NCBI GenBank assembly: GCA_964016885.1 | Contig: OZ024742.1 | Span: 107,880,001 to 107,944,000, forward strand | Direction of reading: 5' to 3' | Origin: Eledone cirrhosa | Lineage: Eukaryota | DNA length: 64,000 nt | Shown here: positions 1,432 through 52,830 of the stretch, piece by piece | How positions within the stretch are numbered: position 1 is the first letter of the stretch | Layout: each line of letters opens with the position of its first letter | Program-made: the position numbers and the translations under genes | Notes under the pieces: generated by a model | Told to the model about the DNA's origin: nothing | Databases searched by the model: none | What the model saw: the letters and a program-made list of their open reading frames with translations, nothing else

Positions 1432-5422
<3,991 letters not shown>

Positions 5423-5503
5423 TATACCTCAATGTACCAAGGATTACACACATTTTCCAATATGCATATATATATACATATATACATATATATATATATA
5501 TAC

Positions 5504-5551
<48 letters not shown>

Positions 5552-5554
<3 letters not shown>

Positions 5555-5740
5555 CAAGTAAAACCCCGACGGCTGAGCTCAAGCCGTTTCGACGGCTAAT
5601 TCTGTACTCAATTAGCCGTCGAAACGGCTTGAGCTCAGCCGTCGGGGTCTTACTTGTTCTTATTACCCACTCTACTACCCTAAGTATTGAGTACTTTGGT
5701 GCGTTATGGTCCACCTGGTTCCTTACCACATTTCCTTCGT

Positions 5741-5741
<1 letters not shown>
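5552..5741 (+). repeat. Short repeat family A copy with 50-bp fold-back palindrome and HHR 3' half
   Basis: Arms 5552-5601 and 5610-5659. Contains GAAA-cggcttgagctcagccg-TC-ggggtc. The tail tacccactctactac...ggttccttaccaca.ttccttcgtta is shared with the copies at 6324, 7003, 27177 and 52697. Confidence 0.8.
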
Positions 5742-5798
<57 letters not shown>

Positions 5799-5819
5799 CA
5801 CATATATATATACACACAC

Positions 5820-5854
<35 letters not shown>

Positions 5855-6003
5855 TATATATATATATACATACACACACACACACATATATATATACACA
5901 CACACACACATACACACACATATATATACACACACACACACACATACACACACATATATATACACACACACACACACACATATATACACACACACACGCA
6001 CAC

Positions 6004-6106
<103 letters not shown>

Positions 6107-6125
6107 TATATACATATATATATAC

Positions 6126-6310
<185 letters not shown>

Positions 6311-6323
6311 TACATATATATAC

Positions 6324-6470
6324 CTGAACGTTCAGATCTAGCTGTCGAAACGGCCGGAGCTGAGCCTTCGGGGTCCTGAGTCTTTTCCTAATACCCACTC
6401 TACTACTCCAAGTATCGAGTACTCTGGTGCGTTATGAACCACCTGGTTCTTTACCACACTTCCTTTGTAT
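6324..6470 (+). repeat. Family A copy
   Basis: gtcgaaacggccggagctgagcc...tacccactctactac...ggttctttaccacacttcc, embedded in (TA)n. Confidence 0.75.
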
Positions 6471-7002: not shown

Positions 7003-7160
7003 GTAAATGTATGACCCGGACGCACAGCTGACGCCGTTTCGACGGGTTGAGCTCTGCCGTCGGGGTCATACATTTCCCTATTACCCACTCTACTACCCTA
7101 AATATTGAGTACTCTGGTGCATAATGGTCCATGTGGTTCCTTACCACAACTCCTTCGTTA
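7003..7160 (+). repeat. Family A copy with short fold-back
   Basis: aaatgtatgaccc...gccgtttcgacgg...gccgtcggggtcatacattt followed by the family A tail. Confidence 0.7.
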
Positions 7161-7178
7161 TATACATATATATACACT

Positions 7179-27126: not shown

Positions 27127-27176
<50 letters not shown>

Positions 27177-27179
<3 letters not shown>

Positions 27180-27364
27180 CGAAGGAAATGTGGTAAGGAA
27201 CCAGGTGGACCATAACGCACCAAAGTACTCAATACTTGAGGTAGTAGAGTGGGTAATAGGAACCAGTAAGACCCCGACAGCTGAGCTCAAGCCGTTTCGA
27301 CGGCTAATTCGAGAATTAGCCGTCGAAACGGCTTGAGCTCAGCTGTCGGGGTCTTACTGGTTCC
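27177..27364 (-). repeat. Family A copy with perfect 52-bp palindrome
   Basis: Arms 27259-27310 and 27313-27364 around a 2-nt centre. The family A tail is reversed at 27177-27258. Confidence 0.85.
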
Positions 27365-27507
27365 GCCTCCGTGGTATTTTCTTCGTGGTTATAAGAGGCT
27401 TAGCTCTGTTTCTCGACCGTTATATCGCGTGACTATCTCCCCCTCCGCCTTTTGGGATTCTTTCTCACGTCGTGTAGACGCGTTCTTGAGACTAGTAAAA
27501 TGAGGTA

Positions 27508-27595
27508 TCCTCTTGATAAGTTGGCAGACCTCGCAAGGACTCTATATCTTTGATATATTGTTTTTGTTTATGCCACGAAACTACGTAGTCGAGGA
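27508..27595 (+). ncRNA. Type-I hammerhead ribozyme, U3-A8 core variant
   Basis: tcctc-TTGATAA-gttggca...tgccac-GAAA-ctacgtag-TC-gagga. Stem I tcctc/gagga, palindromic stem III, GUC triplet ending at 27590. Confidence 0.75.
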
Positions 27596-28099
27596 ATTTA
27601 GGAGCAGTTTAGGTATGATACATTTTATTACTAATTATATCTAAATGTTTCTTATCTCTTCATAATGTATTTTTAACTCTGATACTGGTTCAGTCTGGTT
27701 CAAACTGAATTGGTCTGTCCCAGTCATTCATTGAGCAACATCGGTGAAGTTGGCACCCTTAACTCACAGTTGGGTGCGGATGCATTCATGTATATATGTG
27801 TGTGTCCGCATGTATCTGTGTGTTTCTAAATATATTAATAACTCCCTCTGGTCGAGCAATCTTTGAAGTGTGGGGACAACTGGAAAGCTTCCATTACTCA
27901 TACTTCTCGCCTTCTTCACTACCTCTTCTGCGGCCTCGATATGAATACCCCCCTCCGCCTCCGTGGTATTTTCTTCGTGGTTATAAGAGGCTTAGCTCTG
28001 TTTCTCGACCGTTATATCGCGTGACTATCTCCCCCTCCGCCTTTTGGGATTCTTTCTCACGTCGTGTAGACGCGTTCTTGAGACTAGTAAAATAAGGTA

Positions 28100-35770: not shown

Positions 35771-35810
<40 letters not shown>

Positions 35811-36402
35811 GTTTTAATATAGATGAGATTCCACAGGACTAGAACTGTTTCATTCTTTAGAAATCATCAGGAATCTGGGTATCAAAAAATAAATATGGTA
35901 TTTATAGGTCTCTTCGGGTGGTAGGAGAGGGTAGGGAGTGGGATGGGTAGAGGTCATTGGTTGATAGAAAAGGGAATTCATTAAAAGCTAATTCTTTAAG
36001 GCTATAATTTATATTTAGAGTAACAAAGGCAGAAAGAATTCTATAAACAAGTTCAGAATGGGGAGCTACTCCTTATTTTTATGTTTCTCTTAAGCTAACA
36101 ATGCCTATATTTCAGGTGTCTATAAGATCGTTGGGGGTCAGTCATGGTTGATGGATTTAAAGAAAAGGGAAATTCTTTAAAAGCTAATTCTTTAAGGTTC
36201 TACTTAGTGACAAAGGCCTAGAGAATTCTATAGACCAGTTCAAAATATTGAGTGCATATCATACCATTACCTTCAAATTTCTCTTAAACTATATTCCAAA
36301 AGTCAACAGACACATTCATAAACACACACACTCACACAGACACTCGCGCGCACCCCCCCAACACACATATATATATATACATATATATACATATACACAC
36401 AT

Positions 36403-48329: not shown

Positions 48330-48920
48330 GTGTATATGTGTGTATATGTGTGTATATGTATATATATGTATATATATATGTGTGTGTGTGGGTGCGCGCG
48401 AGTGTTTGTGAGTGTGTGTGTTTGTGAATGTGTCTGACTTTTGGAAGAGAAATTTGAAGGTAATGGTATGATATGCACTCAATATTTTGAACTGATCTAT
48501 AGAATTTTCTAGGCCTTTGTCACTAAGTAGAACCTTAAAGAATTAGCTTTTAAAGAATTTCCCGTTTCTTTAAATCCATCAACCTTGACTGACCCCCAAC
48601 GATCTTATAGACACCTGAAATATAGGCATTGTTAGCTTAAGAGAAACTTAAAAATAAGGAGTAGCACCCCATTCTGAACTTGTTTATAGAATTCTTTCTG
48701 CCTTTGTTACTCTAAATATAAATTATAGCTTTAAAGAATTAGCTTTTAATGAATTCCCTTTTCTATCAACCAATGACCTCTACCCATCCCACTCCCTACC
48801 CTCCCCTATCACCTGAAGAGACCTATAAATACCATATTTATTTTTTGATACCCAGATTCCTGATGATTTCTAAAGAATGAAACAGTTCTAGTCCTGTAGA
48901 ATCTCATCTATATTAAAACT
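48330..48920 (+). repeat. PLE-pLTR-like repeat carrying an intact hammerhead
   Basis: Inverted partner of 35811-36420. Confidence 0.85.
48854..48904 (+). ncRNA. Type-I hammerhead ribozyme with canonical core
   Basis: agattc-CTGATGA-tttctaaagaat-GAAA-cag ttctagtc ctg-TA-gaatct. Perfect 6-bp stem I, GUA triplet ending at 48898. Confidence 0.85.
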
Positions 48921-52652: not shown

Positions 52653-52696
<44 letters not shown>

Positions 52697-52699
<3 letters not shown>

Positions 52700-52773
52700 C
52701 GAAGGAGTTGTGGTAAGGAACCAGAAATAGCCGTCGAAATAGCTTGAGCTCTGCCGTCGAGGTCATACATTTT

Positions 52774-52776
<3 letters not shown>
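52697..52776. repeat. Short rearranged family A copy
   Basis: An inverted tail (aacgaaggagttgtggtaaggaacc) is fused to tagccgtcgaaa.agcttgagctctgccgtcga ggtcatacattt. Confidence 0.7.

Positions 52777-52830
<54 letters not shown>

What the first reader, a model, noticed from the sequence alone, without database searches (positions are those of the whole stretch)
5552..5741. Independent insertions fold back at the putative hammerhead stem II
Seen: family A copies at 5552 and 27259 are both palindromes centred on gacggctaatt-loop-aattagccgtc, directly followed by GAAA-cggc..gc(c/t)g-TC-gggg (HHR stem III plus GUC). The expected 5' half (stem I and CUGANGA) is replaced by a mirror copy of the 3' half. 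The arms of each palindrome share copy-specific variants (gacggctga and acaagtaa here, gacagctga and accagtaa at 27259), so each fold-back formed separately. Inference: nascent cDNA snaps back on the ribozyme stem II hairpin and self-primes second-strand synthesis. This would be a concrete mechanism for PLE-type inverted termini and would also delete the catalytic core.
Basis: partly seen in the sequence, partly recalled or inferred. Interest (0 to 1): 0.75.

Follow-up and report, generated by a model that had tools for sequence, protein, structure and literature searches.

The report
Twin-primed Penelope stubs, not snap-back
These palindromes are two of many thousands of short head-to-head insertions of a Penelope-type jumping gene, and they likely form when both cut ends of the target DNA each start a copy of the element's RNA at two fixed sites and both copies run off the RNA's likely capped start, not by folding back on the ribozyme hairpin.

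Summary
The palindromes are real; the snap-back mechanism is not supported. They are 2 of at least 11,031 short insertions of a 3.6-kb Hydra-like Penelope element in (TA)n. Its full junction carries a hammerhead fold with a variant core, but the hairpin seen is a mirror copy, not stem II; the predicted stem II snap-back product has 0 copies. One arm ends at element position +61 and the other runs past it in 9,033 insertions, against 75 and 76 same-type pairs. 179 of 180 sampled arms stop between -5 and +8, inside loop II, often with an extra C (3,598 against 713 T). About 1,000 copies have a truncated long arm that cannot have templated the short one. The 'copy-specific' variants are subfamily alleles. 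Best reading: twin target priming, run-off at a capped start, end-joining; inferred, no RNA data. The scan reached this reading before on other DNA of this genome. A published reading of such palindromes is self-priming (PMC3846280).

The parts
5467..5551 (.). (TA)n target tract, left flank; inferred primer of the short cDNA
5552..5608 (-). Short (inverted) arm of copy 1: element +57 to +1 read as cDNA on the + strand; starts at the +61 site, runs to +1
5609..5609 (+). Extra C after +1, not templated by any upstream variant seen; inferred copy of a 5' cap
5610..5743 (+). Long (forward) arm of copy 1: element +8 to +141
5613..5648 (+). 3' half of the hammerhead fold: stem II 3' strand, GAAA (5621-5624), stem III, UC (5642-5643), stem I 3' strand; the 5' half is absent
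5661..5663 (+). TAT at +59..+61: fixed end of short arms, inferred priming site 1
5741..5743 (+). TAT at +139..+141: fixed end of long arms, inferred priming site 2
5744..6322 (.). (TA)n/(CA)n tract, right flank
27176..27310 (-). Long arm of copy 2: +7 to +141, ending in (TA)n
27312..27364 (+). Short arm of copy 2: +6 to +58; abuts non-TA sequence repeated near 27955
52696..52778 (.). Insertion whose arms do not overlap: +141 to +113 (minus) joined through a 4-base overlap to about +4 to +61 (plus); the short arm cannot be a copy of the long arm
7009..7161 (.). Older, diverged head-to-head copy (+51 to +14 inverted, +22 to +141 forward)
6324..6468 (+). Stub of sister family B starting at the homologous +1 region

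Best explanation
The palindromes are short insertions of a Penelope-like retrotransposon in (TA)n, likely made by twin target-primed reverse transcription: both cut target strands would prime on the element RNA, one at +61 and one at +141, both cDNAs would run off the likely capped RNA start inside hammerhead loop II, and their 3' ends would be joined head to head. Shown: the parent element, the two fixed ends used one each, the sharp 5' limit (-5 to +8), the extra C, the junction microhomologies and small templated insertions, and the absence of the stem II product. Inferred: cutting of both strands by the element's GIY-YIG nuclease, priming through TA/UAU pairing, a capped Pol II start at +1 with a second start near -4 (about 0.75), one RNA serving both primers (about 0.65), and microhomology-mediated end-joining. 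The RNA begun at +1 holds both priming sites in its 5' leader, so priming there gives ORF-less stubs, while priming on the read-through 3' copy gives long inverted-repeat insertions with an 80-base one-sided tail.
For: One end of each type: 9,033 mixed against 75 both-long and 76 both-short; 79 of 90 sampled short arms start at the +61 site and 79 of 90 long arms end at +141; 20 of 20 long pairs that I picked from the list have one end of each. Either arm can be the longer: short arm reaches further 5' in 28 of 90 stubs, long arm in 44, equal in 18; 8, 11 and 1 of 20 long pairs. 672 + 332 copies join a short arm to a long arm that starts downstream of about +35 (window 52696). Both arms complete to +1 in 3,286; 8 loci among the 100 rows listed carry the extra C on both arms (read by eye). 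Fewer than 3 unpaired bases at the apex in 45 of 90; a templated snap-back of the long cDNA is geometrically possible in 9 of 90. 5' limit: 179 of 180 arms; C 3,598 against T 713 after +1; an extra G at 5' junctions is read as cap copying in L1 (PMC9341517, passages). Family B stops at the homologous base although its loop differs. One RNA: arms differ at 2 or more subfamily sites in 2 of 83 mixed against 9 of 45 both-long loci (Fisher p 0.001), and truncated long arms start at +57..+62 in 36 of 84 (p 0.0003 against uniform). In vitro a Penelope-like protein cuts and extends both strands from two internal RNA sites that bound the tail (PMC11167929, parts 1-2 of 4 read).
Against: No RNA data show the start or the cap. 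The 5' limit is a window, not a point, and the 90-locus sample was limited to loops of at most 30 bases; about 5 of 50 listed longer-loop palindromes (of 851) read into natural upstream sequence past -5 (by eye). The A-runs after +1, which I first took for untemplated tails, are largely templated by the TTT of the commoner subfamilies. Part of the C excess could be blunt joins to the partner's C at +4/+5. Most stubs overlap fully, so a single RNA needs strand displacement, which is untested. The +57..+62 peak is not fully controlled for microhomology (23 of 51 without overlap). The both-long class is heterogeneous, and 6 of 45 share a rare variant in both arms (2 of 83 in the main class), so arm-to-arm copying does occur there. 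In PMC11167929 the two strands did not differ in start site. All samples are the first listed places on C1-C6, not random draws.
Confidence: 0.8

Rival explanations
1. One reading: one cDNA reads through loop II, snaps back on the stem II hairpin and self-primes the second strand.
For: The hammerhead fold with a 6-bp stem II exists at the junction and breakpoints lie in its loop. One such product is among 50 listed family B long-loop palindromes.
Against: 0 products in family A against more than 5,000 read-through copies; arms stop about 25 bases before the 5' strand of stem II; cannot give the fixed +61 end, non-overlapping arms or a longer short arm.
Confidence: 0.03
2. One cDNA primed at +141 runs to the RNA 5' end, folds back on 1-4 bases of its own end, copies itself to +61 and attaches to the other target end by TA microhomology; asymmetric apices come from later deletions. 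This is close to the self-priming reading of PMC3846280.
For: Arms are nearly always the same subfamily; long arm is more often the longer (44 against 28); several recurrent junctions fit a 1-base snap-back once an extra C is allowed.
Against: Extra C on the short arm (5 of 90, and copy 1) and on both arms needs a second free cDNA end; short arms keep the +58 end even when very short (292 matches, a mixed class); 76 insertions have two +61 ends; private variants are rarely shared (2 of 83; weak test).
Confidence: 0.1
3. Twin priming as in the best explanation but on two RNA molecules from the same source locus, or with a 5' limit set by something other than a capped start (RNA processing or a reverse-transcriptase stop).
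For: Full overlap of arms needs no strand displacement with two RNAs; the related protein is predicted to be a dimer (PMC11167929); mixed-subfamily arms exist (9 of 45 both-long).
Against: Two free RNAs give no simple reason for 98% one-of-each ends; long arms pile up at the second site; thousands of copies read through the loop, against a structural stop; the extra C fits a cap.
Confidence: 0.07

Closest known systems
Hydra clade of C-terminal-endonuclease Penelope-like elements (Craig et al. 2021, PMC8557442; passages, section 11 and supplement hits read)
   Same: RW[KR], DKT, CxCx5C, CxxC and CxH motifs, C-terminal GIY-YIG, (TA)n target, hammerhead fold, partial tandems, inverted 5'-truncated copy, one-sided tail.
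   Different: 3.59 kb with a 1.2-kb 3' region (Hydra generally under 3 kb); core U3:A8 or C3:A8, not canonical; tail 80 bases, not 30-40. The paper ascribes the tail to endonuclease resolution of the intermediate; here it maps to two cDNA start sites.
Poseidon element PAc in vitro (Frangieh et al. 2024, PMC11167929; parts 1-2 of 4 read)
   Same: Both strands cut and extended; two internal start sites bounding the tail; AT-rich target; ribozyme cleavage not needed.
   Different: No strand difference in start site seen, priming not homologous to target, and inverted products not explained in the parts read; here each end uses one site and both sites are TAT.
L1 twin priming (Ostertag and Kazazian 2001, seen as described in PMC12016303 passages; original not read)
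   Same: Two target-primed cDNAs of opposite orientation joined at their 3' ends.
   Different: In L1 a minority outcome (18-22%) with variable internal priming and short overlap (median 12 bp); here the rule, at two fixed internal sites, with full overlap to the RNA 5' end.
Adineta vaga Penelope palindromes (Arkhipova et al. 2013, PMC3846280; passages read)
   Same: Head-to-head inverted pLTRs with palindromic junction, tail, Inr-like motif in the pLTR.
   Different: Interpreted there as self-priming, possibly on an antisense template; the counts here favour two primers on a sense template.
PLE hammerheads (Cervera and de la Pena 2014, PMC4209133; parts 1-2 of 4 read)
   Same: Type I fold in the pLTR, G10.1-C11.1 pair, palindromic loop III, U3-A8 core variant reported in Schistosoma PLEs.
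   Different: Here a 31-33-base loop II holds the inferred transcription start and stem III is 4-6 bp.

Membership tests
Hydra-clade PLE | Single ORF with RT and C-terminal GIY-YIG nuclease | tested here: met
   YRDD and VIY..YIG in one 593-aa open frame; all three copies read are broken. Pfam gave 0 hits, so the call rests on motifs read by eye.
Hydra-clade PLE | RWK motif and DKT in place of DKG | tested here: met
   RWR and DKT translations.
Hydra-clade PLE | CxCx5C linker; CxxC and CxH around E and N | tested here: met
   read by eye.
Hydra-clade PLE | Insertion in (TA)n | tested here: met
Hydra-clade PLE | Canonical hammerhead in pLTR | tested here: inconclusive
   Fold present (z -1.09, not significant alone) with one compensatory stem II pair in family B; core is U3:A8 in 29 of 30 or C3:A8 in some.
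Hydra-clade PLE | Placement in the clade by RT phylogeny | not tested
   Reference proteins were only in a paper supplement, not held as sequences.
Type I hammerhead ribozyme (active) | Self-cleavage after UC (+41) | not testable with these tools
   5' ends at +41/+42 are 7 of 90 truncated long arms, not clearly enriched; one long arm starts at +41 (L180).
Type I hammerhead ribozyme (window stubs) | Stem I 5' strand and core upstream of stem II | tested here: not met
   Absent from both window copies; no hammerhead family among the 150 Rfam rows shown of 327.
L1-type twin priming | Two oppositely oriented, separately primed cDNAs | tested here: met
   By genomic signature only.
L1-type twin priming | Both primers on one RNA | tested here: inconclusive
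   concordance and +57..+62 peak favour it; two RNAs of one source not excluded.

The most novel reading that the evidence does not exclude
Penelope-like elements integrate by obligate, programmed twin priming: one protein dimer on one RNA uses two fixed, non-equivalent start sites, one for each target strand, with strand displacement and head-to-head joining. That single rule would explain inverted pLTRs, the one-sided tail and junction palindromes, and the stubs would be a genomic record of the capped start placed inside the ribozyme's loop II, so that only the 3' read-through copy can fold a ribozyme.
Probability: 0.55. Interest if true: 0.72.

Novelty: new variant of a known kind. Interest (0 to 1): 0.55.

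Why it matters
How Penelope-like elements form tandem and inverted termini is named as open in PMC8557442, and PMC3846280 reads junction palindromes as self-priming. Here about ten thousand independent insertions give countable signatures that favour two primers and argue against self-priming for this family, and they predict exact start sites (+61, +141), an RNA 5' end and a one-site-per-strand rule that an existing in vitro system could test. The structure itself (inverted copy plus tail) is known. My searches listed no paper stating the one-site-per-end rule, but most subscription papers, including the older Penelope reviews, were not searchable.

Tried and rejected
The repeat finder on the window was swamped by microsatellites. 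Rfam gave only microsatellite-driven miRNA hits in the rows shown. No RNA holder listed; not used as evidence. Logan contigs of three runs of one study show the family, (TA)n after +61 and short-arm joints to +49..+100, but none spans the stretch and they may be the source sample; only a weak argument against an assembly artefact. Pfam: 0 hits. One search was a self-comparison of no use. Rejected: untemplated A tails as evidence (one search missed the main subfamilies; some searches showed TTT upstream; only the runs longer than 3 need slippage). Rejected: HDV-like or type II/III hammerhead in the stub (no core on either strand of the unit by CTGANGA search). Rejected: palindrome copied as a unit (61 loops in 90). 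Rejected: ribozyme cleavage as the apex (the site is +41). Rows dropped: 6 of 90 loci with indels or truncated short arms, plus L167, a both-long locus. Supplements of PMC11167929 (figures S1, S2) were not seen and may bear on strand-specific start sites.

Full report
OBSERVATION. Both palindromes are in the window as described. Copy 1 reads (TA)n, inverted arm 5552-5608, one C, forward arm 5610-5743, (TA)n. Copy 2 lies on the minus strand at 27176-27364. The window is G000:C3:107880001-107944000 in a 3.0-Gb assembly. The pattern of two mirrored 12-mers up to 30 bases apart matches 11,031 places, the reversed control none; 851 more have 31-60 bases between (overlapping matches included). These are exact-match counts and so lower bounds.

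PARENT ELEMENT. Copies that continue past the stub led to a 3,591-base unit in tandem and inverted arrangement on C14. Its broken ORF shows RT and C-terminal GIY-YIG motifs, RWR, DKT, CxCx5C, CxxC and CxH, the features given for the Hydra clade (PMC8557442 section 11; supplement alignment by eye). I number from +1, the A of AGT[C/A]CAG. The stub is the first 141 bases of the unit.

THE HAMMERHEAD. Junction-spanning copies carry TACCCC, a core TTGATAA (28 of 30 in one subfamily) or TTGAGAA/CTGAGAA (other subfamilies), CGGCTA, a loop containing +1, TAGCCG, GAAA, stem III, UC and GGGGT. The minimum-energy fold of one copy is the three-way junction (z -1.09). Family B has a compensatory pair in stem II and a different loop that ends in TTAGTT. 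U3-A8 is a reported PLE core variant (PMC4209133).

TEST OF SNAP-BACK ON STEM II. The product would keep the natural loop behind a mirrored arm. Two patterns covering the subfamily loops seen found 0, while 475 and 4,601 copies read through the loop. Family B, with a 9-bp stem II, has one such product among 50 listed of 72 long-loop palindromes against 811 short-loop ones. The route is at most rare.

TWO FIXED ENDS. In 90 oriented loci (30, 60) 79 short arms start at the TAT of +59..+61 and 79 long arms end at the TAT of +139..+141. Genome-wide, with matched patterns: 9,033 mixed, 75 both long, 76 both short. Twenty long head-to-head pairs chosen from the list all have one end of each type, and the +61 arm reaches further 5' in 8. 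A copy of the first cDNA cannot outrun its template. At least 672 + 332 copies join a short arm to a long arm truncated downstream of about +35; 80 of 90 of the first class still start at the +61 site. The window holds one at 52696-52778.

THE APEX. With subfamily-specific upstream sequence, 179 of 180 arms end between -5 and +8. After +1 the commonest non-natural base is C: 9 of 12 junctions with an insert, 3,598 C against 713 T genome-wide. Copy 1 shows it on the short arm. An extra base of this kind is read as cap copying in L1 (PMC9341517). TCAGTC, TTAGTC, TTAGTT and TCATT[T/C] at +1 and -4 resemble the arthropod initiator consensus (recalled, not from a call); Penelope and Chlamys-3 start inside the pLTR (PMC2377424; PMC8557442). 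I first read the A-runs at the apex as untemplated tails; some searches showed that most subfamilies have TTT at -1..-3, so three A's are templated and only longer runs, up to about 30 on one arm and 12 on the other, need slippage. Junctions show 0-4 bases of overlap in 58 of 90 and inserts in 32; some inserts are repeated copies of flanking sequence, as in polymerase-theta end-joining or template jumping (recalled).

ARM VARIANTS. Arms share a haplotype in 74 of 84 pairs against 18.6 by random pairing. Two or more diagnostic differences occur in 2 of 83 mixed and 9 of 45 both-long loci; rare shared variants in 2 of 83 and 6 of 45. Truncated long arms start at +57..+62 in 36 of 84. This favours one RNA for the normal event and two RNAs, later recombination or arm-to-arm copying for the rare class.

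MECHANISM AND RIVALS. Best supported (0.8): both target strands prime, at +61 and +141, both cDNAs run off the RNA start in loop II and are end-joined. Single-cDNA fold-back at the 5' end with later deletion (0.1) fails on extra C's on the short arm or both arms. Two RNAs or a non-cap limit (0.07) stays open. Stem II snap-back 0.03. A local snap-back step inside the end-joining itself is not excluded.

KNOWN AND NEW. Inverted copies and one-sided tails are described for PLEs; two start sites and extension of both strands were shown in vitro; twin priming is known for L1. The self-priming reading of PMC3846280 does not fit this family. Earlier notes of this scan on other stretches of the same genome reached the same reading; I had stated it before the first look-up, and they are not independent support. 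The bioRxiv retrozyme preprint was seen only as four passages. Verdict: real feature, wrong mechanism, new variant of a known kind.

Noticed in passing
G000:C3:214146-214149 kb (L035, L012-L025): Tandem array of a 274-base deletion derivative (+1..+254 joined to -21..-1) lacking the 5' half of the hammerhead; it too has one +61 end and one inverted +140 end, which suggests a circular or multimeric RNA template.
   Followed up: partly
L180 (G000:C1:164621680-164626260): A unit-length arm whose 5' end falls at +41 of the upstream unit, the predicted cleavage site; a single case.
   Followed up: no
Family B, window 6324-6468 and 1-60: Sister family with 811 short-loop palindromes at the homologous +1 and 72 longer ones, most listed ones stopping near -10 to -15, perhaps a second start.
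   Followed up: partly
Junction-spanning copies, L367-L426: Core differs by subfamily: U3:A8 in most, C3:A8 in several of the CCTACTC subfamily; the core pair may be drifting.
   Followed up: partly
One search list: Many short arms skip the segment between the two AGCCGTC direct repeats around stem III, a possible template jump or later deletion.
   Followed up: no
window 27362-27900 and 27955 onward: The short arm of copy 2 abuts a segment repeated about 590 bases downstream instead of (TA)n; a local duplication or deletion.
   Followed up: no
G000:C14:25.09-25.11 and 25.39-25.41 Mb (L031-L034): A 99.6% identical block of at least 19.6 kb, 300 kb apart: recent segmental duplication or assembly duplicate; it also holds ORF pieces of a different Penelope-like family.
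   Followed up: no
window 1647-2360 / 4599-5312 and 35810-36285 / 48445-48920: Long inverted repeats (714 bases at 96%, 476 at 98%), possibly head-to-head insertions of other families.
   Followed up: no
L097:1581-1684: Predicted long-range helix between +66..+76 and about +160..+168 brackets the two priming sites (z -0.83); might bring them together.
   Followed up: no
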